A stretch of DNA of 64,000 bases. It comes from an uncultured virus (IMG/VR IMGVR_UViG_3300028887_000113) (taxonomy: Duplodnaviria > Heunggongvirae > Uroviricota > Caudoviricetes). Below are positions 8,364-58,922 of this stretch, piece by piece. The notes beneath the pieces are model-generated. The model did no database searches. It saw only the letters and a program-made list of their open reading frames with translations, and was not told where the DNA came from. The DNA is taken from IMG/VR virus record IMGVR_UViG_3300028887_000113; one strand, 5' to 3'. The position numbers were made by a program, and so were the translations under genes. Position 1 is the first letter of the stretch. Every line of letters begins with the position of its first letter.

Positions 8364-8480
8364 CGAAAAACGTCCAATTTTATACAGAAATTAGTTTATA
8401 ATATCGTGCAGAGAAAACTTCCAACCAGCGCCTCTAGGCGCTGGGGAACACTTCAGGGTGGCAGATGATAGGCGCGGAAC

Positions 8481-8515
8481 TTGACAAAAAAAATTAATTT
8501 AACTATTTATAAACT
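8481..8515 (+). promoter_or_regulatory. Sigma70-like promoter overlapping a phage late promoter upstream of tnpB
   Basis: TTGACA (8481-8486), 17 nt, TATTTA (8504-8509); ATAAACT at 8509-8515. Confidence 0.6.
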
Positions 8516-8540
8516 ATATAAAGATTAGAACTATTGAACC

Positions 8541-9701
8541 ATGTTTCCGCGTGCCTATAACGTCAGACTGTATCCTAACAAGCAGCAAGAAGTCTTGCTC
8601 GGCAAGACTTTCGGCTGCTGCCGTAAAGTCTACAACTGCATGCTGGAAGTACGCAAGAAATCATACGAGGCGACCGGCAAGCAGTGCCGGTCTAAGCCGA
8701 CAGATTTCTACGGAGAGTTCCCCTTCTTGAAGGAAGTTGACTCGAACGCCTTGACAGCCGAAGTGCTTACGTTGAATACGGCGTTCAAGAACTTCTTCGA
8801 GCGGAAGGACGACGGAGTCGGCTTTCCGCAGTTCAAGGCGAAGCACCGGGACAAGGATTCGTATACGAGCTACCGAACGAAGGACAATATCCGCGTAGAA
8901 GGGAGGAAACTCCGCCTACCGAAGGTAGGCTTCGTTCCCTTCCGCAATTACGAAGAGATCGACTGGTCTGTAATGGACATCAAGCACGTGACCGTGTCAC
9001 GGTCACGTGCCGGGAAGTACTATGCTTCAATCTTGGTCGAGGAGACGGTGCCGAAGGCACTGCCGACGACTAATTCAGAAATCGGCATTGATCTTGGATT
9101 GAAGGAATTCTGTGTTACAAGCGACGGCGAATCCGTCGCGAATCCTCGTTTCCTCAAGGAATCAGAAACTCGTATCGCTGACCTTCAGCGAGCGTTTTCC
9201 AAGAAGCAAAAAGGTTCAAAGAGACGAGAGGCATTGCGCGTGCGTATCGCTCGCGAACATGAAAAAGTTGCTAACCGAAGGAAGGATTTCCTTGACAAGC
9301 TGTCTACAAGACTGCTCCGTGAGAACCAAACGGTGGCGGTCGAGGACTTGGACGTACGCGAGGTCGCCGAGGGCGACCACGCGAAGTCCGAGCATGACAC
9401 GGCTTGGAGGATGTTCCTGAACAAACTACAGTACAAGGCTGAATGGTACGGAAGAACCATCGTCCGGGTAGGACGATGGTTTCCCTCGTCTCAGCTATGT
9501 CACTGCTGTGAGTTCAAGAATACGTTGACAAAGGACTTGAATGTACGGTCGTGGACATGTCCGCAGTGCGGCACGTCGCACGACCGTGACGTTAATGCTG
9601 CCATCAACATCCTTACCGAAGGTAAAAGATTATTCGCCGCAGGGACTGCGGTTAAAGGCGCGGGAAACATCGATACGCAACGCGAAGCGCAACGCCTTTA
9701 G
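8541..9701 (+). CDS. tnpB: RNA-guided endonuclease TnpB
   Basis: HTH start RAYNVRLYPNKQQ...FGCCRKVYN, RuvC triad GIDLG / VAVEDL / DRDVNAA, zinc ribbon CHCC...CPQC. Confidence 0.95.
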   Translation: MFPRAYNVRLYPNKQQEVLLGKTFGCCRKVYNCMLEVRKKSYEATGKQCRSKPTDFYGEFPFLKEVDSNALTAEVLTLNTAFKNFFERKDDGVGFPQFKAKHRDKDSYTSYRTKDNIRVEGRKLRLPKVGFVPFRNYEEIDWSVMDIKHVTVSRSRAGKYYASILVEETVPKALPTTNSEIGIDLGLKEFCVTSDGESVANPRFLKESETRIADLQRAFSKKQKGSKRREALRVRIAREHEKVANRRKDFLDKLSTRLLRENQTVAVEDLDVREVAEGDHAKSEHDTAWRMFLNKLQYKAEWYGRTIVRVGRWFPSSQLCHCCEFKNTLTKDLNVRSWTCPQCGTSHDRDVNAAINILTEGKRLFAAGTAVKGAGNIDTQREAQRL

Positions 9702-9737
9702 GCGATGCGTAGTTCACTAGTTTCCAAATCGGAACGC
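9634..9737 (+). ncRNA. Cis omega-RNA (reRNA) conserved 3' scaffold plus predicted guide TAGTTTCCAAATCGGAACGC
   Basis: Overlaps the tnpB 3' end and the right end. The scaffold ends at GTAGTTCAC (9717), and blocks are conserved with the copy at 35115-35199. The 5' boundary is unknown. Confidence 0.7.
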
Positions 9738-17279: not shown

Positions 17280-17318
17280 AGTTTATCAGTTTTCGGATGG
17301 TGCCCATACTGATAAACT
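17280..17318. promoter_or_regulatory. Back-to-back divergent late promoters
   Basis: AGTTTATCAGTT at 17280 (minus, gp6) and ACTGATAAACT ending at 17318 (plus, gp14). Confidence 0.7.
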
Positions 17319-28002: not shown

Positions 28003-28040
28003 AGTTTATCAGTTCGGACTGAACCAAAAAATGATAAACT
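28003..28040. promoter_or_regulatory. Divergent late promoters
   Basis: AGTTTATCAGTT at 28003 (minus) and GATAAACT ending at 28040 (plus). Confidence 0.7.
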
Positions 28041-28065
28041 ACAGTCATACAACTAGGAGTTATCC

Positions 28066-29016: not shown

Positions 29017-29496
29017 CTACCTAAGCTTGATCTGGTCTTGATAGTCCTTCTGCTTGATCGGCTCGTCGCCCCAAGCGGAAGCGGTAGAACAAATAGAATA
29101 GCGGACATTCTTGAGCAAGTCGACCACTTCATCCTTAGTAAGAACCTTCTTGTCCTCGGCGGCCTTGCGGTCTTCCTCGGCACCCTTTCCGTTAGGATTC
29201 TTGGTAATATCGTACTCCATACGGCGATAGTTCTTCTGTCCACGGCCCGGAGTATTGTTTACCATGTCGTCTTCAAGGAACTTGTCTTGCAATTCGGCCA
29301 ACTTATCCTCTGTATGCCAGTACATCTGCTCGGCAGCACGCTGCACGAACTTCTCGGCCTTGCCGGACTTGATGTCCATGACACCAGGGATGAGGCTCTG
29401 GGTCTGTACGTAAATATCGTGTCTCCAGTCTGGATGGGTATCAAAATTCGTTCCGTACATACCCAATACGTTTCCACTGTTAATCTTCTGAGCCAT
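29017..29496 (-). CDS. Hypothetical late protein
   Basis: 159-aa ORF with a late promoter at 29522. Confidence 0.65.
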   Translation of the reverse strand: MAQKINSGNVLGMYGTNFDTHPDWRHDIYVQTQSLIPGVMDIKSGKAEKFVQRAAEQMYWHTEDKLAELQDKFLEDDMVNNTPGRGQKNYRRMEYDITKNPNGKGAEEDRKAAEDKKVLTKDEVVDLLKNVRYSICSTASAWGDEPIKQKDYQDQIKLR

Positions 29497-29602
29497 AGTT
29501 TTCGTCCTTGACTTTGCAGATAGTTTATCACAATGTTACACGTTTTGTTTCAATATGGTATAATTTTCATATCAAAATAAACTACAAGAAAAGGAGCTTC
29601 CT

Positions 29603-29900: not shown

Positions 29901-30647
29901 CTATTTCTTTTCCTCGGCGGTCTTCTTCTTGCGTACGGCAAGGATGCGTTTTGCTTCCTTGCAAGCAGCTTCCTCGCTGACACCTTCCTCGTCAACCAGT
30001 TTCTTAGCCAGTTCGATGACCTTGTCGTCCATGTACGGATCGACCTTTTCAAGGACATCGACCGCATCGGACAAGTTGCCGTGATCCATCGCCAAGTGGG
30101 CATTGATCTCGTCCTTCTGACGCGTTTCCTCACGTTCGATCACACCAGCATACTCGTCAATATTGACGCACGTATGGAGAATGTTCTCGTTCAAAGAGGT
30201 GAACTTGATGTACTTTGACTTCTTCTTGAGGTCGGTTACTTGCTGCATGAATGCACGAGACACGATCTGCCCCAAGTAGTAGTAAGGATCCTTGTTCTTG
30301 GAATTCTCCGCCATCTTGTTCGGGTCGAACGAATGGCAGTACTTCAGTGCGCAGAACTGGGCACGAGCGTACATTTCTTCCTTCCAAGAATCCGTGTACT
30401 TGCGCCATGACATCATGCCAGCGGTCTTCTTGATGACGACCTGGATAGCAGTGGCGAGGTCATCCGATACCGGATAACCCTTGCCGTACATTTCCACGTC
30501 TTTTTTGTGTTCGAGGAGAAGTCTGGTCAGATAATCCTTATCAATCTTGTCGTACTTCATCGAGGCGACCGTCTGACGGCCTTTATCGTCAAAGACTGCA
30601 GGGTTTGCCGGACGCTTCTTCGGACCGTTAATGTTCTTGTTGTTCAT
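29901..30647 (-). CDS. gp55: Late transcription sigma factor gp55-like
   Basis: WRKYTDSWKEEM...LKYCHSFDPNK...DPYYYLGQIVSRAF matches the gp55 pattern F..Y...EEM..A...LKY..NFDP.K..NPFAY.TQI...AF. Confidence 0.85.
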   Translation of the reverse strand: MNNKNINGPKKRPANPAVFDDKGRQTVASMKYDKIDKDYLTRLLLEHKKDVEMYGKGYPVSDDLATAIQVVIKKTAGMMSWRKYTDSWKEEMYARAQFCALKYCHSFDPNKMAENSKNKDPYYYLGQIVSRAFMQQVTDLKKKSKYIKFTSLNENILHTCVNIDEYAGVIEREETRQKDEINAHLAMDHGNLSDAVDVLEKVDPYMDDKVIELAKKLVDEEGVSEEAACKEAKRILAVRKKKTAEEKK

Positions 30648-31772: not shown

Positions 31773-34346
31773 TTAATCCCTCTTCAAAGCTTCATGGTAC
31801 GTGTCCGAACTTTCATCTGTCTCGATAGGCGTATGTATCGGGTCGCCTCCGTAGGTGTATGCCTCTCCATCGTCGTCCGTTACCAAAATTTCCTGTGTCA
31901 TAAACCAGATGCAACTTGGGTCATACTGGTTATACTCGGCTACGAACTGCGACTTGCTCATCGTAGTCGTATAATACGCGACACCAAACAAATGACTCAT
32001 GCCGACTAGATATCCTTCAGGATTCTTCCCGGTACCGTCACAAGTCTGGCAAATCTCGCCGGTTTCTTGATCGACACCAGTTCCTTCACAGTCCTCGCAC
32101 ATATCACCTATCGCATCAACAGTCTTCGACGCGTCTTCCATATCTGCACATGTCGTGCGTTTAGTCGAATGCGGCAGACTATGGGCGAACAAGTTGGTCG
32201 TGCACGTAATACGCCACGGCATATACAACGTGTCGCTATCCAATCCGTTCCTAGTAACCGGCCTATCGTCTGTATCATATCCAATAAGGAATTCCCACTT
32301 GTCATCACATATACCAAACGCTTCCCCAGCATCACCACCGGCAATAACACCGGTCGTCTCGGTGAACCAGTCGTGCTCATTTACATCAACCAGATTCTCT
32401 GTCGCCTTTCCCTTCACATGCAAATGATATACGTAATAGTCCATCCCATTCTGCTGGGTTCCCGATGCAACATACGCATACAGATGCCATCCATCGTCCT
32501 CCAGACGCCAGAACTTGATTGTAAACCCGTTGCGGTCATTGCTGTTAGTGTAGCCGGACGGCATTCGTATGTTATACACACGAGGTACGTCGCACATACT
32601 GTCGCACATCGGAGTCCGTATGCACTTAGGATTCTGTACGTACTGTCGATGTTCTACTAGACTTAACCCAAAATCGTAATCAAAATCCTCATTGTCAACC
32701 ACGCAAGTTTCCTTTACTGGGTCTCCGGGCGTCCTTCCTTGATATCCGACAAGCGCATCCTCCTCGCCAACCTTAATCTGGTAATCAGTTATGCTGAACT
32801 GATTATATTCCGCATTTGGAGCTATTGATGCCCCGGCGCATACTATCTTTACAGTGCGCTGCAGATGATGCATATAGCATGACGGCGTCAAGAAGTAATA
32901 GTCAATATGAAACACGCCGCCACACTTACAGAAATCGATATCGTTCTGGACAATGATATGGGACGTAAAATCGACACTCGTTCCATTTACATCAGATTCC
33001 AGCACATCGGCAAGCTTTTCCCAAGCACCGCATGTCACCAGATAGATGCCGTCCTCGCCGTTCTTCTGGTTAAGCAACGCCACAACATTTCCGGACGATA
33101 CATTGTAATTACAGATAGTACGGTTGCCGCACTTGTACGGTACGTCGTCACGGCATACATAATCTACCGGATAGCTAGCGCGAGCACCCAAGTCGACCAG
33201 TACAGTATTGTCTACCGGCATCGGTGTCGGAACACGGTAACAGTCGGTTTCACAACCAGTCTCTACGTCATTGAACCCTTGCCAGCTTCCGGATCGCACT
33301 ACCCACAGTCCGTTCTCGGACTCGACAAACTGGTGCGCAAGCCATACGACATCGCCATCAAGCAACTGGACTCCGTCCAGTTTCAACAAGCCAGCCTTAT
33401 GGGACAAATTCTTGTTGTATTTCAGACGAACCATCGTATAGAAGTAATCTTCACAATCTACGGACGGATTGATACGGAAATACACGGTATCGCCGTACTT
33501 CGGATTGGCCGCCGCATCCTTAACAGAATTACCATTGTCGTCTATAGTATCATACACCAACGACATCGTGCCAGTCTGATAGCATTCTTTCTCAATCGTA
33601 ATGCCTTCGGTCGAATAACGCTGCTGCTCATCGGTACCCGAATCGTATTTATAACGAATGATCCCTATACTCGGATCGCCGAACAGCTGGTTACCATAGC
33701 TACAATATATGTCGTACTGGGCACACGGCTCAGAACCCTTTCCGTCCGTGGCCAGCATTCCCGGATATACCGTAAACGCCGCAGTTCCTACGCCGGTTTC
33801 ATCAATATCAAACTCAATCTCGTCAGGTTCGACTACATACTCGGTTTCGCCGTTATACAGCTTAATACTGAGCCCCTCGGTGAGATTCTCCCCATGCACA
33901 ATAACAGAAACGCTCTCATCTACACGAGACGCCAAGTTTTCCACATAAGTAATGGTTGGTAATTCTTTGCCAAATACAGTCGCATATAGATATACATCAA
34001 TACGCTTGTATGTCAAGTCAAAATCATCGTAATAGTCAGCCCCGTTCCTGGCATACACGTCCGCATCCACGTCAACATAGCCAACGACAAACCTTAGCGG
34101 TATTTTCCGATAGACTTCGGCTTCGCCAGCGTATAAAGGAGGAATATTAAGCAGTACATTGTCTTCACCTTCAAGTGTCAAATAAAATCCATTCGACACT
34201 CCGTTTATCGCTTCTAGTTCGATCGAACGGACGCGACCGTCATCCTTGCCATCATCGTCGATGGCAAATACGTCGATAGGTTCATTATGCTCCGAAAACG
34301 GTACTGTATAATAGCCTAAAGTAATTGACGGTACGCCCATAGTCAT
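31773..34346 (-). CDS. Cys-rich probable virion protein
   Basis: Two 'LDGV.L..GD.V.L..Q....ENG.(W/Y).V..G.W'-type repeats seen in phage structural proteins, plus two CxxCxGTG motifs. Confidence 0.6.
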   Translation of the reverse strand: MTMGVPSITLGYYTVPFSEHNEPIDVFAIDDDGKDDGRVRSIELEAINGVSNGFYLTLEGEDNVLLNIPPLYAGEAEVYRKIPLRFVVGYVDVDADVYARNGADYYDDFDLTYKRIDVYLYATVFGKELPTITYVENLASRVDESVSVIVHGENLTEGLSIKLYNGETEYVVEPDEIEFDIDETGVGTAAFTVYPGMLATDGKGSEPCAQYDIYCSYGNQLFGDPSIGIIRYKYDSGTDEQQRYSTEGITIEKECYQTGTMSLVYDTIDDNGNSVKDAAANPKYGDTVYFRINPSVDCEDYFYTMVRLKYNKNLSHKAGLLKLDGVQLLDGDVVWLAHQFVESENGLWVVRSGSWQGFNDVETGCETDCYRVPTPMPVDNTVLVDLGARASYPVDYVCRDDVPYKCGNRTICNYNVSSGNVVALLNQKNGEDGIYLVTCGAWEKLADVLESDVNGTSVDFTSHIIVQNDIDFCKCGGVFHIDYYFLTPSCYMHHLQRTVKIVCAGASIAPNAEYNQFSITDYQIKVGEEDALVGYQGRTPGDPVKETCVVDNEDFDYDFGLSLVEHRQYVQNPKCIRTPMCDSMCDVPRVYNIRMPSGYTNSNDRNGFTIKFWRLEDDGWHLYAYVASGTQQNGMDYYVYHLHVKGKATENLVDVNEHDWFTETTGVIAGGDAGEAFGICDDKWEFLIGYDTDDRPVTRNGLDSDTLYMPWRITCTTNLFAHSLPHSTKRTTCADMEDASKTVDAIGDMCEDCEGTGVDQETGEICQTCDGTGKNPEGYLVGMSHLFGVAYYTTTMSKSQFVAEYNQYDPSCIWFMTQEILVTDDDGEAYTYGGDPIHTPIETDESSDTYHEALKRD

Positions 34347-34991
34347 TTATCCTTCTGTAGGCGGCTGTGCCACTTCCGGAAGCGGTATTCCGCACAGTTT
34401 TCTGATTGTGTTTCCAGTATTCTTGAGTGCCTGAACGATCGGAGCAGACTTCTGGCTAAACGGCTTAAAATACTTCTCGCACTTCGCCGGGAGCCATTCC
34501 TGAGGGTTCTGCAGAGACACACAAAGGTTCTCGATGAAGGAGAGCATCATTTCCGGATTGATGGCGGCACCCTGCACGTCATCCTTCCAGTCGGCCTCGA
34601 CCTTCGTCTTGTATGAGGACATTTCCTTGACACGCTGCACTGCCTCGCTCTTGTTGATGCCTTCCTTGACCTTGCGGTTAACCTCATCGAACTTTCTCAA
34701 GTTGTTCTGGTATGCGTCACGGAATTCCTGGGAGCCTTCACCGATATTAACTTGCTGCGGAACGAAATATCCGTTCGGCTGTACGCCTTGCTGATATTGC
34801 GGCTGCATCGGCTGCTGGTATCCCTGCGGAGGATACTGCGGCTGCATCGGCTGCTGCGGATATCCTTGCTGTGCATAATTCGGCTGCGGTGCATACTGCG
34901 GAGAGTAACCCGGTTGCACGTACGGATTCTGCGGTTGAGGTTGTTGCATCTGGCCACGAGGGGCAATGTTAGTGTAGTCTGGTTGTTTCAT
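34347..34991 (-). CDS. Q/P/Y-rich hypothetical late protein
   Basis: QQPMQPQY repeats, RBS GAGGA, late promoter at 35009. Confidence 0.65.
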   Translation of the reverse strand: MKQPDYTNIAPRGQMQQPQPQNPYVQPGYSPQYAPQPNYAQQGYPQQPMQPQYPPQGYQQPMQPQYQQGVQPNGYFVPQQVNIGEGSQEFRDAYQNNLRKFDEVNRKVKEGINKSEAVQRVKEMSSYKTKVEADWKDDVQGAAINPEMMLSFIENLCVSLQNPQEWLPAKCEKYFKPFSQKSAPIVQALKNTGNTIRKLCGIPLPEVAQPPTEG

Positions 34992-35015
34992 AAATCCTCT
35001 ACACGCCTAGTTTAT

Positions 35016-35199
35016 ATAATAATGGCGTCATCTCAAAGGTGCAAACTATAAATAGAAATTGCCTATTGGAAACTGTGACGATATTTACTACATTAATAAT
35101 GTATCGCAAGGTACTCGCCGCAGGAACGGCGGTTAAAGGCGCGAGCGTCTCTATGAGACTAACGCGAATCTCACCGTATTCCAATGGTGCGTAGTTCAC
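35016..35199 (+). mobile_element. Protein-less mini-element derived from the tnpB element
   Basis: Starts after TTTAT (35011-35015) and ends in GTAGTTCAC (35191-35199); no ORF of consequence. Confidence 0.65.
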
Positions 35200-35219
35200 C
35201 AGTTAGGCACATTTCGTCT
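35101..35219 (+). ncRNA. Stand-alone omega-RNA with predicted guide CAGTTAGGCACATTTCGTCT
   Basis: 27/29 identity to 9634-9662, shared AACGCGAA and TGCGTAGTTCAC, and a 5' GCAA-tetraloop hairpin. Confidence 0.7.
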
Positions 35220-35239
35220 AAGTGGATAAATTACTCTAA

Positions 35240-35268
35240 AAAAGGCCCGGTCTTGCGACCGAGCCTTT
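35240..35268. terminator. Intrinsic terminator (gp22 on minus; possibly also the omega-RNA on plus)
   Basis: AAAAGGCCCGGTC-TTGC-GACCGAGCCTTT. Confidence 0.7.
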
Positions 35269-35295
35269 CCACCATAACAAGGAGATTTTATGGAA

Positions 35296-36210
35296 TTACG
35301 CAAATTTTCCTAGGCCGAGGTTCTCAAACGCCTTGACGTTTGACATGGCTGCCGCAATGTCGGAAGCATCGTCCGTAGGAACATCCATCAGGTCGACGTT
35401 GACATCTTCGAGAAGTGTATCCATACCAGCAGCAAGTCCGGCACGCTGCGGCTTGAGACCCTTCGTCAGAGACTCGATCTTCGGAGTGACCTTTTCTGGT
35501 TCCTCGTCATCACACTCGAATATACCGTCGATAGATTCCAGCTTGTTTTCTCGATCTAACTGGTCGTCGATGTCCTTCAATGCGTTCACGACATTGTCCA
35601 TGTTGAGCTTTCCGTCACGTTCCGGATCAACGTCCAGCATATACACGTCGTTGGAAGAACCGTCGATGAACTTCATGATACTGTCAGACGTAATGTCACG
35701 GACGTCATAAGGCAAGAAGTGGTTCATCACTGCCTGTACAACGTTCGGCTTCATGCCCTGCACTAGTCGCATGATGTAGGACTTCTTCTCTGCATCGTTC
35801 AGCTTGTCCTTCAACGCCTCACGTTCCGCATAGGCGGTCTTCAAGTTGGCGTTAGCCTTGGCCAGCAAGTCACGGAGCTTCTTGGTTTCCTCGGAAGTCG
35901 TGCCGTTCAAGGAAATAGTAATACCGACGCTTTCAAGGACTGCAGACATGGCACTAAGTGCCTTGAACATCTTGTCATTGATAGCATCGGTCTTCATCTT
36001 GGAAATATTCTCGGCAACAGCCTTACCGATCATCTTCTCAGCCTTCGATGACACGGCTTCCAGCATCTTATCAACTTGCTTACGCTGCTTGTCCTTATTG
36101 TCTTCTTGAACAGAAGCCAATTCGGCATCACATGCGGATTCAATTTTCGCAATCACATCTGGATTTATGCCAGAATATTCCTCTTCTGTCAATACTGAAC
36201 TTAGATTCAT
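35296..36210 (-). CDS. gp22: Prohead core scaffold gp22-like
   Basis: Helical and acidic, with many (L/I/F)E(S/D/C/N) motifs; follows gp21. Confidence 0.65.
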   Translation of the reverse strand: MNLSSVLTEEEYSGINPDVIAKIESACDAELASVQEDNKDKQRKQVDKMLEAVSSKAEKMIGKAVAENISKMKTDAINDKMFKALSAMSAVLESVGITISLNGTTSEETKKLRDLLAKANANLKTAYAEREALKDKLNDAEKKSYIMRLVQGMKPNVVQAVMNHFLPYDVRDITSDSIMKFIDGSSNDVYMLDVDPERDGKLNMDNVVNALKDIDDQLDRENKLESIDGIFECDDEEPEKVTPKIESLTKGLKPQRAGLAAGMDTLLEDVNVDLMDVPTDDASDIAAAMSNVKAFENLGLGKFA

Positions 36211-36962
36211 GGATTAAATCCTCGCAATGCAGAAATTAGACCATTTTTATCATAAAGACCACCGCCTACAGAAATAGTGGCGTAATGGTGCGCAATCTCG
36301 GCCCCGTACCGGTTCATGATGTCCGTAACGGACTCGACCAGCGGTCGTGGTCCGGCAACCGATTCTGTCAAAGCCTTAGCCTTGCCTTCGGCAGACTCCT
36401 GACGTGCGGTAAAGATGGCGTCCTGACCAAACGACGGATTACCCACAACATCAATGGTAATCATCGTATAGTCGTCGGCAATTTCCTCGTGCTCGCCCAT
36501 GTTGATCGTACTACCGGCACCGCGCAGCGAGAATCCCGGATGGTATCCGCCACGGATCAATGCGGCAAGCTGCTTACCAGCAACCGTCTCTTCCATCACG
36601 ACCATGCGCACCTTGAGGAGGTCGCCTTCCATATGCAAGTCCTCAATCAACGCACAGATAGACATCAAATCCATCTCGAAGATCGGATAGTCCTTCGCAG
36701 TTCCGTCCGGACCGAGTCGCGGGTGATTCAAGGAAGCGGCAAGACGGCCCTTCATGACGAAGTCCTTCACCAGACGGTTGGCCTCTCGCTCGATAATCGG
36801 CTTCGGGTACGCACGGTTGTTGATACCCGGTACGTTGCACTTGATCGCAGTTCCTTCAATGATCAAACGTTTTACATTGTTACCGAACATGTCCTTGCGT
36901 TCAACCAAGGATACGGTAGAACCCTCGAATATAGCGTCGCCGTATAATTGATTAGTTGCCAT
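36207..36962 (-). CDS. gp21: Prohead protease gp21
   Basis: NNRAYP, LNHP, GFSLRGAGS, IDVVGNPS; start at MATNQLY. Confidence 0.9.
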   Translation of the reverse strand: MATNQLYGDAIFEGSTVSLVERKDMFGNNVKRLIIEGTAIKCNVPGINNRAYPKPIIEREANRLVKDFVMKGRLAASLNHPRLGPDGTAKDYPIFEMDLMSICALIEDLHMEGDLLKVRMVVMEETVAGKQLAALIRGGYHPGFSLRGAGSTINMGEHEEIADDYTMITIDVVGNPSFGQDAIFTARQESAEGKAKALTESVAGPRPLVESVTDIMNRYGAEIAHHYATISVGGGLYDKNGLISALRGFNP

Positions 36963-37128: not shown

Positions 37129-37209
37129 CAAAACTACCGCTCAGTTATTCGGTAGTTTATATATGTTGACATCTTGTTTTTTCTTGAAAATCCTGCTATA
37201 TTGAATAGT

Positions 37210-38280
37210 ATGCAAAATCAAAACCAGAATCCAGCCAAAGATCAGTGCAAGTTCAACAGTTCCGACACGCTGCACATACCCGGACTTGAACCGAACCATA
37301 TCGGATACTTCCGTCGACTTGCAAAGCAAATCGGCGTCGAGGAAGCCAGACTGAAATATAACGGAATGTCCAAGGAAAAAGCCGTCTATCTGGCATCGCT
37401 CGACGACAAGATGGACAACTACGGAATCAAGTGGACTGTCGAGGTACTCAAGAAACGATATGCAGACAAGAAGTTCGCACCGTATATCGAACCGAAACCT
37501 CGTGACGACTATGACTATTACGATTATTACGACCGAGACGAATTCTTCGGCCCCAAAGATACAGTAACCTACGCAAGATGGCTGTACAACCGGTACGGTG
37601 CACGAAAAGTGGCCAAACAATTCCATATATCCGACAACATGGCAGAACGAATCGGAACATCATCACTTCCGGGCTCCACGAAAGTCGACGAGCTGGAAAC
37701 TGAAGACGATATCGACGAAAAAGAATCAGAAATCTATGCGCGAAAGGCCGCAAAATCAATTAACGCATACCAGATGAAGCAGTTTCACAATGGAAACTCC
37801 AGAAAACTGAAAATCCGACTCAACAAACTGGCAGAAAACGACACCGCATTCGTTCTGAGAAAGCTCATCGAGACCGAAGACTATAACATCAAGGCAAAGG
37901 AATGCTATTTCGACTATATCCAGTACAATTATGACAAGAAATCGGAAAACCTAGTGGCAGCTATCGAACGACTGTCCAAAATGGACTGGAAATACTGGTG
38001 GGCCGACGACCAGGAAGGTACCGCGTCATACATATTCTACGTAGTACTGCCTACCGGAAAGCAAGTAAGCTGGCACGGTATGCACATCAAGGACGTAGAA
38101 AACGTACCCAAAGACAACGATGCCGAATGGGACGGCGAACTGTCGTCTACACTCCCGAAACTGCTGGAATGCGTCGAGGCAGTTTGCCCGTCGATTAATG
38201 AAGAAAAGTTCGACAAAAAGAAATGCCTTGACGAACTAGAAAAATACTCACATCAAGAGTTCGAACGAGTCCAGTCGTAG
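37210..38280 (+). CDS. Hypothetical protein
   Basis: Long plus-strand ORF preceded by TGCTATATT; C-terminal LPTGKQVSWH motif. Confidence 0.7.
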   Translation: MQNQNQNPAKDQCKFNSSDTLHIPGLEPNHIGYFRRLAKQIGVEEARLKYNGMSKEKAVYLASLDDKMDNYGIKWTVEVLKKRYADKKFAPYIEPKPRDDYDYYDYYDRDEFFGPKDTVTYARWLYNRYGARKVAKQFHISDNMAERIGTSSLPGSTKVDELETEDDIDEKESEIYARKAAKSINAYQMKQFHNGNSRKLKIRLNKLAENDTAFVLRKLIETEDYNIKAKECYFDYIQYNYDKKSENLVAAIERLSKMDWKYWWADDQEGTASYIFYVVLPTGKQVSWHGMHIKDVENVPKDNDAEWDGELSSTLPKLLECVEAVCPSINEEKFDKKKCLDELEKYSHQEFERVQS

Positions 38281-40409
38281 CGGTACTGTCCGCAGTCGTA
38301 TATGCGGTACAGTCCCCGTTCTAGCGTAATCTCGTGCTCGGTCTTGCCTTCATCACCCGGACCGGCAATCTTGTGCCTCTGGAACTGCATACGGTTCTTC
38401 CGGATATCGCCGTCCACGATGAAGTAACCGGGCGAGCTCATCGCCGTGAACTCAAATCCAAGTTTTTCGTAGAACGCATGCCCCGTGCTCCACCTAGCGT
38501 CCGCATACGATACTATGTGGTCCACGTCGTGATGGTCCTTCATGAACGCACTGAACAGCTTACCGGCACCGCCTACCACGTTCACGTCACGGTCGGAACA
38601 AAATCGCACAAGTTCCACTACGTTGGCATCGAAGCGGCTCTGGCCGAACGTCATCAAGGCTACAAGACGATTTCCAGAATACAATCCATATCGGTAAGGA
38701 GAATTCACAGCACCTTGAATATGATTACGGTCGAGGAAGTCTCGTGCCGTCTGAGAGTCTACATCCTTCACCTCGCAGTCTCGCGCATATACCTTGTCGA
38801 CAGACGACATACCGAACAGATAGCGGAGCCTGGACTTCACGATTTCGTTCTTGTACATCCACTCGTCGGAGAAGATATGGATCAGACGGTAGCCCTTCTC
38901 CTCGGCAAGAAGCTTCTTCCTCAAATGATAGCCTGGGTCATGGAACAGCTCGGAATGCCAGTAGACACCGTCATACTCCACGATAATCTTGCTGTCCTCG
39001 ACCACGATATCTGCTCCATAAGTGCCAAGGAAATCACGGTCGTAGTGCGTCACCTCGTGGCCAAGAGACTTGATGAAATCAGATACTTCCCTCTCCTCCA
39101 CGGATACCGGAGGATTCTTCGGCATGCAGTGAGTGCACGGCGTCAGCCCAGCATCCGTACGGAACTTGATGAACTGTGCCTGTTCAGTACACTCGTGTCC
39201 GCACACGTTGCACTTGAACTGCACCGCCCAGAAACTCGAAAATGAGATACCCACACAGTTGTACGAGCCGAGCATCTTATTATATCTTGCCAGATGCTCC
39301 TCTCTGTACGCATCACTCTGCGCATACCACGGAGCATTATAGCGTTCCATCGATGTCTGAGTAACCTTCTCAATAAACAATGGAGACTGGGCAAAGTTAG
39401 GTACATTGTAATGCTCCATGCAAGTCTCCTTGTACTTTTCCTTGACGGTTTCACTCTGAGTGAAGTGCGGCACGTTATAGACTCGCTGGCTGGTTTCATG
39501 TACCTTCTCATTCCAGTCCTTCGTCTGTGAGTAGTTCTCGACGCCGTACTTTCCCTTCATTGTCGCCTTGTTCGCGTCCTTGAACTTGTCCGACTGGAAG
39601 AAGTGCTCAACACCGTGCTCGGCAAGCATCAGCTCCTTCAACTTAGCCTTTCCTTCCTCCGACGCGGAATACCACGTGCCGTACTCGGCTACTTGCGTCT
39701 CGTAGCTCTTCTGCTTGAACTCGTCAGTCTGCACGTAGTACTTTCCGCCGTTCTCGGCGAACTGGCGCTCCTTCCACTTCGAGAGGAATTCCGGATCGTG
39801 CATATTGTGGTCGACACCGTGCTTAGCCATGTACCCGGCACGCGCCGCGTCGTTGCCTTCCTTGCCGGAGAAGAAGTTCGGACGGTTGAACTTCTCCATG
39901 TTGGTTGCCTCTACCGCCGCCCGGCCGGCATCGCTGTGAAGATAAGTCGTAGCACCGTACTTCGCCGTGAACGTCGCCTTCGCCGCATCTTGCACTTCCT
40001 TCGACTGCATGGCGAAACGTACGCCACGCTTGGCAAGGTGTGTCTGCTGCGCCTTCTCTTGGGCGGCGGCGGTGCCTCCGCCGTTCGTCGTGCCGTATCG
40101 CTCCATGCAAGTCGCTACCGTCTTCGCACGCTTGGCTGCCGCCTTTTCCGGGTCGTTCTTGAACAAGATACCGAAACACTTGTGAGAGCAAGTATCTCGG
40201 TAGCCTTCGGTAATAGACCTGAACTTAGTAGGCTTTCCGCATACCTTGCACACTCCCTCATCAGCCAGCTTAACATACTCATCATAGTAGGTCTTAGTAT
40301 CCTTACTATGCGTCTTGTTCACATGCGAAGATATGCCACGTACCGAATCAAACGTGGCAGCATGACAAATAGCACACTCGTATAGGCCGTCCTTATTTTT
40401 CAACAGCAT
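38253..40409 (-). CDS. Hef-like homing endonuclease (zinc fingers, KYG repeats, PD-(D/E)XK, GNAT-like tail)
   Basis: ADIVVEDSKIIVEYDGVYWH, HIFSDEW, YARDC..FLDRNHIQG, GGAGKL, YADARWS, IYDCG; RBS AAGGAGG. Confidence 0.8.
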   Translation of the reverse strand: MLLKNKDGLYECAICHAATFDSVRGISSHVNKTHSKDTKTYYDEYVKLADEGVCKVCGKPTKFRSITEGYRDTCSHKCFGILFKNDPEKAAAKRAKTVATCMERYGTTNGGGTAAAQEKAQQTHLAKRGVRFAMQSKEVQDAAKATFTAKYGATTYLHSDAGRAAVEATNMEKFNRPNFFSGKEGNDAARAGYMAKHGVDHNMHDPEFLSKWKERQFAENGGKYYVQTDEFKQKSYETQVAEYGTWYSASEEGKAKLKELMLAEHGVEHFFQSDKFKDANKATMKGKYGVENYSQTKDWNEKVHETSQRVYNVPHFTQSETVKEKYKETCMEHYNVPNFAQSPLFIEKVTQTSMERYNAPWYAQSDAYREEHLARYNKMLGSYNCVGISFSSFWAVQFKCNVCGHECTEQAQFIKFRTDAGLTPCTHCMPKNPPVSVEEREVSDFIKSLGHEVTHYDRDFLGTYGADIVVEDSKIIVEYDGVYWHSELFHDPGYHLRKKLLAEEKGYRLIHIFSDEWMYKNEIVKSRLRYLFGMSSVDKVYARDCEVKDVDSQTARDFLDRNHIQGAVNSPYRYGLYSGNRLVALMTFGQSRFDANVVELVRFCSDRDVNVVGGAGKLFSAFMKDHHDVDHIVSYADARWSTGHAFYEKLGFEFTAMSSPGYFIVDGDIRKNRMQFQRHKIAGPGDEGKTEHEITLERGLYRIYDCGQYRYDWTRSNS

Positions 40410-42012
40410 CTTTTGCCTCCTTCTTGTAGACGTAACGGTAGTTTCCGCAGTCGTATATGCGGTAGATACCAAGAGATTTCATAATTTCATGTTCACTCAT
40501 ATTCGGGTCAAATCCCCGCTCGACCAACTTATACTTTTGGTACTTCATGCGAGATTCCCTGATATTTCCATTCACGTAATAGTAATTCGGTTCTGTCGTG
40601 CCATCATATACAAAGCCGAGTTTCTCGTAATAGTTGCCGAAATTACTCCAGCGACGGTCTGCGTAGGTCACCAAGGTCTTTCCGTCGAGAGGATGATCAT
40701 CAAGAAAGTGCTTGAGCAGCCTACTGGCACCTCCGACGACAGTCGTGTACAATGCATTACAGAATCGTAGCATTTCCATTTCACCGGGTGAATACCTAGC
40801 CGGTCCAAACGTCATTACAGCAACCATACGGCCATCATGAACAAGGCCGTACCTATACGTGTCATTACATGCTCCTTGGATATGATTCTTGTCCATAAAT
40901 TTGGTAGATTGTTCATAATCCAACGTAATAATCTTACAGTCCCTAGCATAGACCTTTGTTGTCTTTCTTGGTATGTCCTTATGTAGTACACGGCATAGTC
41001 TCGACTTGACGATTTCCTCATGCAGCTCCCATTCGTCGGAAAATACATGGATTAGATGATATCCGAGTGACTCCGCATAATTGGTTTTATCCAAATGGTA
41101 TGTCTTGTTATGGAATTCCTCGGTATGCCAGTGCAGTCCATCGTACTCGACAATGACCTTCTCATTCTCGCATATAATGTCAGCGCCGTATTCACCCAAG
41201 AAATGACGTTCTTTGTGCGACGTATCTACACCCAAGGACTGGATGAACTTTTCTATGTTCACTTCGCCAGCCGATCTGAAATTACGCTTCGGAAAACACA
41301 CGCTGCATGGCGTATTCTTCGCATACAGTCGTGCATTGACAAAAAATACCGTATCATCCAAGACCGATCCACACTTGTCGCACTTATAGGTCAGATCAAC
41401 TTTATTAGGGTGTTCGATGACATGGCATCCATATTGAGCGAACTCACGGTTATAATAATCGGTTGAGATTCGTAAATTCGCCTTAGACCAGTAGTCAGCC
41501 CCATACCGTAAATGATTGGTCGCTAGCGTCTTTTCGCGATATTCGTCAGTTTGAGTATACGATTCTTTACCATATTTAGCCAAATTGCTGGCATGATACT
41601 TGTTGATAAAATCATCACATTGTGAATAGAACTCGACGCCATGCCTCTCTAGCATGGTAGCCTTTCTGGTTTCAAGAATCTTCTTATTGTACTCGCCATG
41701 AGTATCTTTATTCAATTGATCCACAGTAGCTTGTCTGGCAGCGATTTTATGGGCATTACGGTCAGTATCGGCAGCAATATGCTTGGCCGAACATTTCTTG
41801 CTGCAAAATTCCATGTAGCCATAACCAATAGTACGGAATTTAGTAGGCTTACCGCATTCGGCACATTTACCATCAGTCGGCTTTGCCATATACTTGTCAA
41901 AGTACGCTTGCGGCGATAGCTCATGCGTTTTACATACATGAATACCAAGCGAAGACGCCTTTTCGTATTCAACGATTTTTCCAAGTTCTTTACATACATT
42001 ACATTGAAACAT
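40393..42012 (-). CDS. Hef-like homing endonuclease
   Basis: Same architecture: VEYDGLHWH, HVFSDEW, NHIQG, GGASRL, IYDCG; RBS GAGGTGAGG. Confidence 0.8.
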   Translation of the reverse strand: MFQCNVCKELGKIVEYEKASSLGIHVCKTHELSPQAYFDKYMAKPTDGKCAECGKPTKFRTIGYGYMEFCSKKCSAKHIAADTDRNAHKIAARQATVDQLNKDTHGEYNKKILETRKATMLERHGVEFYSQCDDFINKYHASNLAKYGKESYTQTDEYREKTLATNHLRYGADYWSKANLRISTDYYNREFAQYGCHVIEHPNKVDLTYKCDKCGSVLDDTVFFVNARLYAKNTPCSVCFPKRNFRSAGEVNIEKFIQSLGVDTSHKERHFLGEYGADIICENEKVIVEYDGLHWHTEEFHNKTYHLDKTNYAESLGYHLIHVFSDEWELHEEIVKSRLCRVLHKDIPRKTTKVYARDCKIITLDYEQSTKFMDKNHIQGACNDTYRYGLVHDGRMVAVMTFGPARYSPGEMEMLRFCNALYTTVVGGASRLLKHFLDDHPLDGKTLVTYADRRWSNFGNYYEKLGFVYDGTTEPNYYYVNGNIRESRMKYQKYKLVERGFDPNMSEHEIMKSLGIYRIYDCGNYRYVYKKEAKDAVEK

Positions 42013-42157
42013 ATTTATTAACCTCACCTCAAATATAATAACACGAAATGCAATAGTCAACTGTTTTTTAATAAATAATTAAAAAATATTTTATTACATT
42101 CAGTCTAGTACGTCTTTTATCTTCTACAAGACAGCTGGTCAGAAATATATACAAGTA

Positions 42158-43875: not shown

Positions 43876-45531
43876 TTATCTGTGCCAGATGAACCTTATG
43901 TTACCGCAGTCGTATATACGGTATATTTTCCTTGAGAGCATGATATCATGCTCGCTTTTTTCCTTGTCGAAACCAGCTTGAACGAGTTTTGCCTTTGTGA
44001 ATTCCATTCGGTTGTGACGGTGGCCGTTGATGACATAGAAGTATGACGGTCTGGATATACCGTCGAACATGAAGCCGAGCTTGGGGTAGAAAGCGTCTGA
44101 CGAGCTCCAGCGTCTATCGGCAAAGGAGATGATAGATGAAATCTCTGGATGCTCGGTGATGAACTTATGGAACAGCTTAGATGCGCCGCCTACGACATTG
44201 GTGTTGATCTTGTTGGCGAAACGCAGCAGTTCCATGCCGTCACCGAATCGGTTCTTGCCGAAAGTCATTACGGAGACAAGGTTTCCTTGATAGAACAGAC
44301 CGTACCTATAGGAAGAAACGCAAGACCCTTGCAGATGGTTTGCATCAAGGAAATTATCGGCCTCCTTTGCCGAAATTGTTCCGACGGCGCATTTCCTTGC
44401 AAATATGCGGTCATTGATACCGAGTAGGCCACGAATCCTTGACTTGACAATATCGGGTTGATATTGCCATTCGTCCTCGAATATATGGACAAGATGGATA
44501 CCGTTTTCCTCGCATAGATTAGTCTTTGATAAGTGATATGTAGGAGACTTGCGCCTTTCGTCATGCCAGTACAGACCGTCGAACTCTATAGCGATCTTGC
44601 TGTCTGGCAGATAGATATCGAGTTCCGTATAAGGGATGACGTTACGGACGGACTTCATTACGTTCTCGGAGCCAACAAGTGACTCAACGAATTTATACAG
44701 AGAGATTTCCTCGTTGGAACGGGAAGTCTCTGCCGGAGTGCATACGGTACACCAGTTGACACCATACCTAAATAGCCTCATATATCCGGTATTGATAGGG
44801 ATATCGAACTCGTGTCCGCATTTACGGCACTTGCAGTGGAACTGCCTATCGTCATAGGACAGTATATAGCACTGGTCTTGCAAGAATTTCTGGTACTTGT
44901 CTATTGTCTTCTTGTATACGGTCTGTCTAGCCTTGTCCGGATTGACGAAGTTCGGCACTCCATAGCGTTCAGTTTTCGTGATGGCGGACTGCTTGGAATT
45001 GTTGAAGAACGGGTCGTCGTACTTCAGTTGTTTTGTAGCCGCAGCCTGTTCCTTATTGACGTAGTTAGGGTCTCCATATTTTACGGACTTGGTGGCTTTA
45101 CGCTTTTCTGGATTGTTATAGCCAGCCTTACCATACCATTGTTTCTTGGTAGCCTTGATCCGTGCGCCGTTGACGTAATTCTTGTCACCGTAACGAGTTT
45201 CCTTGGTGCGGTCGATCTGGTCGTGGTTATTAAAGTTTTCGTCACCATGCAGCACTAGGTTAGTAGCCTTTCGCTTGGATACCGTATCTTTATCGTTTGC
45301 TGTGCATTTCTTGGAGCAGTGTTCATAGTATCCACGGTTGAGACGTCCTGAGAACTTGGTAGGTGAGCCGCATAGCTTGCAGATGCCGTCATCTGGTTTC
45401 CTTAGGAACTTGTCATAGTATTCTTGGAGAGATACATCCTTGTGGTCTCTGGACAGATGATGCGACAGGCCAGCATAGGTATTATGCTGCTTATTGCAGA
45501 GTCCACAGGTTGTCAAGTAAATCAAGTCCAT
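43876..45531 (-). CDS. Hef-like homing endonuclease
   Basis: Zinc fingers, YG-D/N repeats, ELDIYLP..IAIEFDGLYWH, HIFEDEW, ARKC..NHLQG, GGASKL, IYDCG. Confidence 0.8.
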   Translation of the reverse strand: MDLIYLTTCGLCNKQHNTYAGLSHHLSRDHKDVSLQEYYDKFLRKPDDGICKLCGSPTKFSGRLNRGYYEHCSKKCTANDKDTVSKRKATNLVLHGDENFNNHDQIDRTKETRYGDKNYVNGARIKATKKQWYGKAGYNNPEKRKATKSVKYGDPNYVNKEQAAATKQLKYDDPFFNNSKQSAITKTERYGVPNFVNPDKARQTVYKKTIDKYQKFLQDQCYILSYDDRQFHCKCRKCGHEFDIPINTGYMRLFRYGVNWCTVCTPAETSRSNEEISLYKFVESLVGSENVMKSVRNVIPYTELDIYLPDSKIAIEFDGLYWHDERRKSPTYHLSKTNLCEENGIHLVHIFEDEWQYQPDIVKSRIRGLLGINDRIFARKCAVGTISAKEADNFLDANHLQGSCVSSYRYGLFYQGNLVSVMTFGKNRFGDGMELLRFANKINTNVVGGASKLFHKFITEHPEISSIISFADRRWSSSDAFYPKLGFMFDGISRPSYFYVINGHRHNRMEFTKAKLVQAGFDKEKSEHDIMLSRKIYRIYDCGNIRFIWHR

Positions 45532-52373: not shown

Positions 52374-52441
52374 ATTGAAAGTCCTTTCAGTGAGCCAGTC
52401 TGGCCCGAATTTCCGAATAGTTTATATAGTTGCCATTTTTT

Positions 52442-54025: not shown

Positions 54026-54063
54026 ATACCACCGAAAGTGTTTGTACGCAGTTTATCAGTTTT

Positions 54064-58869: not shown

Positions 58870-58922
58870 GAAAATGCCTCGGTTACGCACCTAGTTTATC
58901 AGTTTGCAACCGAGGCTAATTC

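What the first reader, a model, noticed from the sequence alone, without database searches (positions are those of the whole stretch)
35016..35219. Stand-alone omega-RNA cassette 25 kb from its cognate TnpB
Seen: 35115-35143 (TCGCCGCAGGAACGGCGGTTAAAGGCGCG) matches 9634-9662 at the tnpB 3' end at 27/29 positions. Both copies then share AACGCGAA and end in TGCGTAGTTCAC. The intervening sequence differs but still folds (GTCTC-TAT-GAGAC; CACCGT/ATGGTG). A GTATC-GCAA-GGTAC hairpin precedes the scaffold, TATAAATA lies at 35047, and a terminator-like hairpin follows at 35240. No tnpB coding remnant is evident. Known: TnpB guides are the roughly 16-20 nt after the element's right end. Inferred: a separately transcribed guide (CAGTTAGGCACATTTCGTCT) that could load the TnpB at 8541 in trans, giving one phage nuclease several guides.
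Basis: partly seen in the sequence, partly recalled or inferred. Interest (0 to 1): 0.9.

Follow-up and report, generated by a model that had tools for sequence, protein, structure and literature searches.

The report
Gene-less guide-RNA mini-transposon in a jumbo phage
A 184-base jumping element that carries only the guide-RNA part of a TnpB nuclease system sits in a large gut phage; this kind of element is already known from bacteria, so here it is a tidy new example.

Summary
Window 35016-35199 is a discrete 184-bp insertion. Two sister phage records (G003, G004) and a contig of an independent metagenome run (X6) carry the exact empty site ...AGTTTAT|CAGTTAGG.... A contig of another run (X4) carries the filled site.

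The element has no coding remnant beyond 13 codons that overlap the RNA. Its 3' ~99 nt (35101-35199) is a TnpB omega-RNA scaffold. A covariance model built only from 15 tnpB-linked copies scores it 54.3 bits (E 9e-11). Across 24 family members the helices are 90% paired, and 14 of 28 pairs change on both sides.

It belongs to a family of gene-less mini IS200/IS605 elements (PATE-like, "standalone omega-RNA"). I found eight other insertions with the same build in phage and metagenome contigs.

The "guide" is simply the flanking DNA. TTTAT plus that guide matches the empty allele of G003 at 20 of 20 positions.

Caveats:
- Transcription and loading onto the intact TnpB at 8541-9701 are not shown.
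- This copy has lost the DNA end hairpins that transposition needs, and it has a competing RNA fold.
- Its scaffold is slightly nearer another tnpB subfamily than the resident one.

One new detail: the family's target, AGTTTAT, is the reverse complement of the phage's own enriched promoter-like motif ATAAACT(A).

Verdict: new member of a known kind.

The parts
35009..35015 (+). Target / TAM: AGTTTAT (minimal TTTAT, 35011-35015) immediately 5' of the insertion. It is the reverse complement of the promoter-like motif ATAAACT(A) that serves the 214-aa gene 34347-34991 (-).
   Evidence: Empty sites in G003 and G004 read ...CCTAGTTTAT|CAGTTAGG.... ATAAACTA occurs 9 times against 1.85 expected, 0 of 100 shuffles. 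ATAAACT occurs 20 times against 9.0 expected.
35016..35199 (+). The mini element: a 184-bp gene-less IS200/IS605-family insertion (PATE-like).
   Evidence: Absent, with exact junctions, in G003 and G004 and in a contig of run X6 that joins 35015 to 35200, skipping 184. Present in a contig of run X4. No coding remnant.
35016..35100 (+). Left-end part. It starts ATAATAATGGCG like the left ends of the L162-type minis. The subterminal hairpin is eroded to CATC-TCAAA-GGTG. Promoter-like candidates: GCAAACTA 35041-35048, TATAAATA 35047-35054, TTGCCT 35061-35066, and ATTTACTA 35085-35092 at the position homologous to the family promoter.
   Evidence: Alignment of 8 minis. DNA fold of 35016-35060 is -0.3 kcal/mol, against -14.5 for the L162 left end. 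No + strand sigma-70 call.
35101..35114 (+). 5' hairpin GTATC-GCAA-GGTAC (GNRA-type loop). It takes the place of the TTACC-GAA-GGTAA hairpin that tnpB codons encode in full elements.
   Evidence: The same 19-mer, GTATCGCAAGGTACTCGCC, occurs in other minis. The hairpin forms in the MFE of the L162 mini and of the tnpB-linked RNA.
35101..35199 (+). Omega-RNA scaffold. Helix S1 is 35117-35133 (one A.G mismatch, 35122/35128). S2 is 35140-35143 with 35163-35166. S3 is 35147-35159. S4 is 35167-35196. It ends at the right end ...GTAGTTCAC.
   Evidence: R1 hit 54.3 bits, E 9e-11. Structure counts on 24 sequences. Energies.
35200..35219 (+). Guide-equivalent flank CAGTTAGGCACATTTCGTCT. This is ordinary phage DNA that was there before the insertion.
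   Evidence: Identical 20 of 20 in the empty allele of G003 and 15 of 20 in G004.
35242..35267 (.). GC-rich inverted repeat. It is the terminator of the 304-aa gene 35296-36210 (-) and a possible stop for a + strand transcript.
   Evidence: RNA folds -25.5 kcal/mol (-, followed by UUUUUU) and -16.9 (+). Conserved in G003 and G004.
8400..9717 (+). Full-length tnpB element (1318 bp). Left end 8400-8540, with hairpin and ATAAACTA promoter motif at 8509-8516. tnpB 8541-9701. Omega-RNA scaffold about 9613-9717. TAM at 8395-8399. Guide flank at 9718-9737.
   Evidence: Empty sites ...ACTAGTTTAT|TAGTTTCC... in G003 and G004. Pfam OrfB_IS605, Cas12f1-like TNB and HTH. R1 152 bits.
8541..9701 (+). TnpB, 386 aa: the candidate nuclease that would use the mini's RNA in trans.
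   Evidence: E 7e-78 to the ISDra2 TnpB structures 8bf8/8exa. The residues aligned with D191, E278 and D361 are D, E and D (the residue numbers are recalled from the literature).

Best explanation
Window 35016-35199 is a gene-less miniature IS200/IS605-family transposon (PATE-like, a "standalone omega-RNA") that landed in an intergenic spacer of a ~350-kb rumen-type jumbo phage.

Shown:
- It inserted without duplication immediately 3' of AGTTTAT.
- It consists of a short left end, a promoter-like stretch, and a ~99-nt TnpB omega-RNA scaffold that stops exactly at the right end.
- The next 16-20 nt of phage DNA therefore become the guide.

Inferred: if it is transcribed, the RNA is bound in trans by a TnpB of the same family, such as the catalytically intact one at 8541-9701. 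That complex would cut TTTAT+CAGTTAGGCACATTTCG, which exists only in phage genomes that lack the insertion. During co-infection the cut empty allele would be repaired from the filled one. The element, and flanking markers, would then be over-inherited, like a homing endonuclease site.

This copy has eroded end hairpins. It has probably stopped transposing, and can now spread only by such homing or by descent.
For: Discrete insertion:
- Exact empty junctions occur in G003 and G004.
- A 302-nt contig of independent run X6 joins 35015 to 35200.
- The filled allele occurs in a 1771-nt contig of run X4.

Omega-RNA identity:
- R1, built from 15 tnpB-linked copies, scores this copy 54.3 bits, E 9e-11.
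- On 24 sequences (9 minis, 15 tnpB-linked), 90.4% of 666 cells pair, against 23-36% when partners are slid by 1-3 columns. Changes on both sides occur in 14 of 28 pairs, against 2-9 slid. In 0 of 500 shuffles is the covariation score reached.

A mobile family:
- Eight other gene-less insertions share the same build at different sites. Three are in phage record G007. Five are in metagenome contigs: L160, L162=L163, L167, L168=L175, L176.
- Of the 17 loci from that metagenome scan, 11 are family members and 6 are chance matches.
- TTTAT precedes 8 of 8 minis and AGTTTAT 6 of 8. AGTTTAT precedes 10 of 13 full elements.

Nuclease present: TnpB 8541-9701 has all three Pfam domains. It keeps the D/E/D aligned with the ISDra2 catalytic residues.

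Target exists: G003 carries TTTAT plus 20 of 20 guide matches.

Precedent: passages in PMC10691335 say standalone omega-RNAs work in trans. Passages in PMC10055086 say PATEs often encode omega-RNAs used in trans, and that TnpB cleaves the vacant site to restore the element.
Against: - No transcript is shown, and no + strand sigma-70-like promoter is called in 34900-35400.
- The family's promoter motif is degenerate here: ATTTACTA or GCAAACTA against ATAAACTA.
- As single-stranded DNA the left end (-0.3 kcal/mol) and the right end (-3.0) lack the stable hairpins seen in the L162 mini (-14.5) and the full element (-13.7 and -11.0). Mobility is doubtful.
- As RNA the family fold costs -27.5 kcal/mol against an alternative MFE of -33.0. 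The L162 mini and the tnpB-linked RNA adopt the family fold as their MFE.
- S1 carries an A.G mismatch. The X4 allele does not have it (35128 G>T).
- The scaffold is nearer to the second tnpB subfamily (74-79%) than to the resident one (72%). It also has a hairpin, S3, that the resident RNA lacks.
- No Y1 TnpA (PF01797) was found in 5 related phage records (0 of 5). None was found among the 43 window ORFs of 70 aa or more that I scanned. What mobilised the family is unknown.
- Only 64 kb of roughly 350 kb of this phage was visible.
Confidence: 0.6

Rival explanations
1. Dead relic. The mini element inserted once, lost its transposition hairpins and promoter, and now persists only by descent. 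Its RNA is not made or not loaded, and the conserved scaffold reflects too little time to decay.
For: - Left and right ends do not fold as DNA hairpins.
- The promoter motif is degenerate and there is no promoter call.
- A competing RNA fold is 5.5 kcal/mol more stable than the family fold.
- S1 has a mismatch and S4 has three unpaired positions.
Against: - 24 of 28 family pairs still form in this copy: S1 6/7, S2 4/4, S3 5/5 with two compensatory pairs, S4 9/12 (read with the structure).
- Between the window and the X4 allele, 5 of 6 differences inside the element lie in the left part and 1 in the 99-nt scaffold. This is weak and not significant.
Confidence: 0.3
2. In-situ deletion. A full tnpB element once sat here and later lost its gene, so the cassette never moved as a mini element.
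For: The 13 codons that overlap the RNA still translate like the TnpB C-terminus. Element length and ends are compatible with a left end plus right end after an internal deletion.
Against: - The junction (promoter, then GTATCGCAAGGTACTCGCC) is shared letter for letter with minis at unrelated sites in G007 and another record. The deletion therefore predates this insertion.
- The minis form their own lineage at eight other sites.
Confidence: 0.05
3. Regulatory side effect. The insertion matters mainly because its left end supplies outward promoters, or an antisense RNA, for the adjacent 214-aa gene (34347-34991, -). That gene's start lies 24 nt from the junction.
For: Three sigma-70-like sites on the - strand lie inside 35009-35072, pointing at that gene. 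Shuffles give 0.6 on average. The insertion separates the core motif ATAAACTA from its former upstream DNA.
Against: - The core motif next to the gene is untouched.
- Sister phages express the gene without the insertion.
- The same family inserts next to many unrelated genes.
- A consensus scan is not evidence of function.
Confidence: 0.08
4. Chance resemblance of two GC-rich hairpin regions.
For: Single short motifs are within chance.
Against: R1 E 9e-11, exact insertion boundaries, and the family of like elements.
Confidence: 0.01

Closest known systems
Standalone omega-RNAs of OMEGA systems (described by Altae-Tran et al. 2021, as summarised in PMC10691335; passages read)
   Same: A mobilised copy of the guide-RNA scaffold without effector or transposase, in the same genome as an effector-bearing locus. 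Its guide is set by the flank. It is proposed, and reported there, to work in trans.
   Different: Here it sits in a jumbo phage rather than a bacterial chromosome. Activity in trans is not tested. This copy looks immobilised.
PATE-like minimal IS200/IS605 elements, e.g. in Geobacillus stearothermophilus (Meers et al., PMC10055086; passages read)
   Same: Left and right ends without any protein gene. Insertion 3' of a TAM with no duplication. An omega-RNA encoded at the right end, needing TnpB and TnpA from elsewhere.
   Different: In this family the tnpB promoter is fused directly to a new 5' hairpin of the RNA. This copy lacks the palindromic end hairpins that give PATEs their name. No TnpA was found in the phages.
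ISDra2 TnpB / omega-RNA of Deinococcus radiodurans (PDB 8bf8, 8exa, 8h1j)
   Same: The resident TnpB matches at E 7e-78 over residues 4-368, with the catalytic D/E/D kept. The RNA overlaps the 3' end of tnpB and ends at the right end.
   Different: The TAM here is TTTAT / AGTTTAT (ISDra2: TTGAT, recalled). The RNA sequences were not compared. ISDra2 carries its own tnpA (recalled).
Free-standing homing endonucleases of T4-like phages (Seg/Mob; review PMC13565253, passages read)
   Same: The predicted outcome is the same: the allele lacking the element in a co-infecting relative is cut and then converted.
   Different: Recognition would be by RNA guide plus TAM rather than by protein. The nuclease gene is 25 kb from the site it protects.

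Membership tests
Non-autonomous IS200/IS605 mini element (PATE-like) | Precise insertion 3' of a short conserved target, with no target-site duplication | tested here: met
   Empty alleles join ...AGTTTAT directly to CAGTTAGG... in G003, G004 and an X6 contig.
Non-autonomous IS200/IS605 mini element (PATE-like) | No protein-coding gene between the ends | tested here: met
   184 bp. tblastn of TnpB gives only a 13-aa match over the RNA overlap. The ORFs listed there are short and overlapping.
Non-autonomous IS200/IS605 mini element (PATE-like) | Subterminal DNA hairpins at the left and right ends (TnpA binding sites) | tested here: not met
   This copy: left end -0.3, right end -3.0 kcal/mol, no better than shuffles. 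Family members have them: L162 left end -14.5, full element -13.7 and -11.0. I therefore file it as an eroded member.
Non-autonomous IS200/IS605 mini element (PATE-like) | Several copies with like ends at unrelated sites | tested here: met
   Eight other insertions with different flanks. Only one copy was found in this window.
Non-autonomous IS200/IS605 mini element (PATE-like) | A Y1 TnpA available in trans | tested here: inconclusive
   PF01797 was found in 0 of 5 related phage records, while the control rang in 6 of 14 known genomes. None was found among the window ORFs scanned. The host genome and the rest of this phage were not seen.
TnpB omega-RNA | Scaffold homologous to the tnpB 3' end, ending exactly at the right end | tested here: met
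   R1 54.3 bits, E 9e-11, model positions 1-130, ending at 35199.
TnpB omega-RNA | Conserved secondary structure supported by compensatory changes | tested here: met
   90.4% of cells paired. Changes on both sides in 14 of 28 pairs. Slid controls give 23-36% paired and 2-9 pairs. The structure was drawn by me from these sequences, which favours it over the slid controls.
TnpB omega-RNA | Guide lies directly 3' of the scaffold, and its target lies next to the TAM at the vacant site | tested here: met
   G003 has TTTAT plus 20 of 20 guide matches. G004 has 15 of 20.
TnpB omega-RNA | Transcribed and bound by TnpB | not testable with these tools
   The runs available were contigs only.
TnpB omega-RNA | A catalytically competent TnpB of the same family in the genome | tested here: met
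   8541-9701: three Pfam domains and D/E/D aligned with ISDra2. Compatibility with this scaffold variant was not tested.
Any curated RNA family (Rfam 15) | Match at gathering score | tested here: not met
   0 matches in the whole window. This is no argument against an omega-RNA, since even the tnpB-linked copy gives no match.
TldR-type nuclease-dead TnpB with a regulatory guide | Loss of RuvC catalytic residues | tested here: not met
   The D/E/D are kept in the resident TnpB.

The most novel reading that the evidence does not exclude
In these rumen-type jumbo phages, one TnpB plus a set of promoter-fused, gene-less omega-RNA minis works as a multi-guide, RNA-directed exclusion and gene-drive system between co-infecting phages. 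This would be a natural step from single-guide TnpB toward array-like guide sets.

The family has tuned its TAM and target (AGTTTAT) to the reverse complement of the phage's own promoter motif ATAAACT(A). Every promoter is then a safe landing site in self and a cuttable site in rivals.
Probability: 0.2. Interest if true: 0.75.

Novelty: new member of a known kind. Interest (0 to 1): 0.4.

Why it matters
- It shows that gene-less omega-RNA elements, so far described in bacterial chromosomes, also live and move in very large phage genomes.
- Filled and empty alleles co-exist in nature: filled in the window and run X4, empty in G003, G004 and run X6. That polymorphism is what an RNA-guided homing drive between phages needs, and it gives a concrete pair of alleles to test.
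- The family's target coincides with the phage's promoter-like motif. This is a simple, checkable rule for where such elements land.
- For tool builders, the family offers a compact (~99 nt) natural scaffold variant with a fused promoter and a TTTAT TAM, related to ISDra2 TnpB.

Tried and rejected
- Own assembly search: not held. G001 is only a 15.8-kb fragment identical to part of the window and lacks this locus.
- INPHARED phages: no match to 34000-36500, and one irrelevant 75-nt hit for the tnpB region.
- Rfam: nothing.
- The 15-mer scan of viral contigs returned 77 loci, of which 8 are real, all tnpB-linked, and 69 are chance.
- The genome contigs pattern scan returned 31 loci, of which 1 is real (L190, a contig of a Fibrobacter sp. 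MAG, with tnpB cut at the contig start) and 30 are chance. Its neighbours (UDP-galactopyranose mutase and others) do not settle whether it is host or mis-binned phage.
- TATAAATA as a T4-type late promoter is not enriched.
- The long-range pairing of the NAAIN-codon stretch with GGCGCG, predicted by RNAalifold on tnpB-linked copies, is absent in all minis. I dropped it from the structure.
- The R1 hit at 29170-29271 (17.4 bits, E 0.02) lies inside an ORF and has no right-end motif, so I treat it as noise.
- RNA run X24: its contigs cover parts of the neighbouring genes but none lies on 35011-35621. Contigs cannot show absence, so this gives no verdict.
- Literature: a search for TnpB with "late promoter" gave 2 papers, neither of which, by title, concerns transposon targeting of phage promoters. 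A search with jumbo/huge-phage terms and passages of PMC12607003 gave only general statements that phages encode TnpB. I did not find this family or phage-borne PATEs in those searches, which is not proof that they are unpublished.
- Structure prediction, complex prediction and the large protein searches were not used, because the question did not need them.

Full report
**What is in the sequence.**
- 35115-35143 matches 9634-9662 at 27 of 29 positions. Both copies then share AACGCGAA and end in TGCGTAGTTCAC.
- The ORF at 8541-9701 is a TnpB with OrfB_IS605, Cas12f1-like TNB and HTH domains.
- It matches the ISDra2 TnpB structures at E 7e-78. The residues aligned with D191, E278 and D361 are kept (the residue numbers are recalled from the literature).
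- Rfam has no match anywhere in the window.

**It is a discrete insertion.**
- The window is part of a large phage. It encodes a portal protein, a prohead protease, baseplate and sheath-related proteins and a gp55-like late sigma factor.
- Its own assembly is not held. Pattern and protein scans found relatives of 175-355 kb (G002, G003, G004).
- In G003 the syntenic spacer reads ...CACGCCTAGTTTAT|CAGTTAGGCACATTTCGTCTAGG.... The window has 184 extra bases (35016-35199) at the bar. G004 has the same empty junction.
- A 302-nt contig of an independent public run (X6) joins 35015 directly to 35200. A 1771-nt contig of another run (X4) runs through the element with 20 differences.
- Filled and empty alleles therefore both exist in nature. 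The boundaries are exact, and no bases are duplicated.
- The full tnpB element is bounded in the same way. G003 and G004 read ...ACTAGTTTAT|TAGTTTCC..., which sets the element at 8400-9717.

**It carries an omega-RNA and nothing else.**
- I collected 15 distinct tnpB-linked 3' ends. Two subfamilies are about 75% identical in protein. The set also includes L117.
- I built covariance model R1 from them without the finding. R1 scores 35071-35199 at 54.3 bits, E 9e-11. The resident tnpB copy scores 152 bits, and nothing else in the window is credible.
- tblastn of TnpB against the spacer finds only 13 residues, over the RNA overlap.
- I drew a four-helix structure on an alignment of 24 sequences (9 minis, 15 tnpB-linked). 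It is 90.4% paired against 23-36% for slid partners. Changes on both sides occur in 14 of 28 pairs.
- In this copy S3 is GTCTC/GAGAC where subfamily 2 has GCCCC/GGGGC. The 5' hairpin GTATC-GCAA-GGTAC replaces the codon-encoded TTACC-GAA-GGTAA.

**It belongs to a family of mini elements.**
- R1 run over five related phage records found three further tnpB-less copies in G007.
- Pattern scans found five more insertions in metagenome contigs.
- All have the same build: (A)GTTTAT, then a left end with a CACCGCC...GGCGGTG hairpin, then a promoter-like stretch, then the GNRA-looped 5' hairpin, the scaffold, GTAGTTCAC, and finally a different flank.
- Their left ends resemble those of subfamily-2 tnpB elements.
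- The minis are therefore a propagating lineage in which the tnpB promoter was fused to the RNA. They are not local deletions.

**State of this copy.**
- Its left end begins like the family (ATAATAATGGCG), but the hairpin is eroded.
- As DNA, neither end folds better than shuffles: -0.3 and -3.0 kcal/mol, against -14.5, -13.7 and -11.0 for intact ends. It has probably stopped transposing.
- As RNA, 24 of 28 family pairs can still form, but an alternative fold is 5.5 kcal/mol more stable. In the X4 allele (35128 G>T, which repairs the S1 mismatch) the gap is 1.7 kcal/mol.
- The family promoter position reads ATTTACTA here. No + strand sigma-70 promoter is called.

**A side finding on targeting.**
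- ATAAACTA occurs 9 times against 1.85 expected, and all 9 copies are intergenic.
  - All point at the next gene.
  - In 8 of the 9, an ATG that opens a long ORF lies 16-44 nt downstream.
- ATAAACT occurs 20 times against 9.0 expected.
- The same motif precedes tnpB inside the left end (8509-8516).
- Its reverse complement, AGTTTAT, is the sequence just before 10 of 13 full elements and 6 of 8 minis. Only the two window elements have boundaries proven by empty sites.
- The family therefore lands at the upstream edge of the phage's promoter-like motif and leaves the core motif next to the gene.
- That the motif is a promoter, perhaps read with the gp55-like factor, is inference.

**Mechanism.**
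- Shown: the insertion, the scaffold, the guide position, a matching TAM and target in the empty allele of G003 (20 of 20), and an intact TnpB in the same genome.
- Inferred: transcription, loading in trans, cleavage of empty alleles in co-infecting phages, and conversion to the filled state.
- This is the vacant-site homing role shown for bacterial TnpB (PMC10055086, passages), moved to a phage population. It is analogous to T4 Seg/Mob homing (PMC13565253, passages).
- No Y1 TnpA was found in the phages. The mobilising enzyme is unknown and may be host-encoded.

**Known or new.**
- Standalone omega-RNAs that are mobilised and act in trans, and PATEs that encode omega-RNAs, are in print (PMC10691335 and PMC10055086, passages).
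- What I did not find in my searches is such elements in jumbo phages, the promoter-RNA fusion, or the coincidence of target and promoter motif.
- I rate it a new member of a known kind, of moderate interest.

Noticed in passing
window 22803-24179 (-): A second, divergent TnpB-like ORF (458 aa). Pfam matches only the Cas12f1-like TNB domain, and PHROGs calls it a transposase. ATAAACT lies upstream at 24223-24229. R1 finds no related omega-RNA next to it. Its guide RNA and activity are unexamined.
   Followed up: partly
window, 20 sites (e.g. 8392-8399, 17280-17286, 17312-17318, 28034-28041, 29521-29528, 29577-29584, 37153-37160, 52418-52425, 54050-54056, 58892-58899): ATAAACT(A) is enriched (20 against 9 expected; the 8-mer 9 against 1.85). 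It lies almost always in spacers and points at the next gene. It is probably the phage's promoter core, and a gp55-like late sigma factor is encoded at 29901-30647 (-).
   Followed up: partly
window 38253-40472, 40393-42060, 43876-45531 (all -), and 21090-22694 (-): Three large paralogous genes match the PHROG 'homing endonuclease / HNH endonuclease' families at E 1e-109 to 1e-118. A fourth gene has DUF7487. The region is rich in selfish-nuclease-like genes.
   Followed up: no
G007 (260-kb phage record): L137, L140, L144 (tnpB-linked) and L146, L147, L148 (minis): One phage genome carries at least three subfamily-2 tnpB elements plus three gene-less minis. L112 and L122 indicate further tnpB copies. 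It is the best natural case for one nuclease with many guides.
   Followed up: partly
L168 / L175 (metagenome contigs): A mini with the usual mini left end and 5' hairpin, but with the subfamily-1 version of the middle region (GGAAACAATGATACGC, no S3 hairpin). This suggests recombination between mini and full elements.
   Followed up: no
L190 (contig of a Fibrobacter sp. MAG, 15.8 kb): The only hit in 185,579 species genomes. It is a subfamily-1 tnpB 3' end at the contig start, followed by a UDP-galactopyranose mutase gene. It is either a host copy or a mis-binned phage contig, so it is a lead to the host.
   Followed up: partly
L167, right flank: Another mini is followed by CAGTTAGTCAGC, like CAGTTAGGCACA here, although the left flanks differ. 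This probably reflects the conserved (T)AACTG just upstream of the promoter motif rather than the same locus.
   Followed up: no
L110 (G003), L115, L122: Three full elements are not preceded by AGTTTAT (TTTTGAG, and TATTTAG twice). L110 also ends in GTTCAT. They may be variants with another target, or their left boundaries may be misjudged.
   Followed up: no
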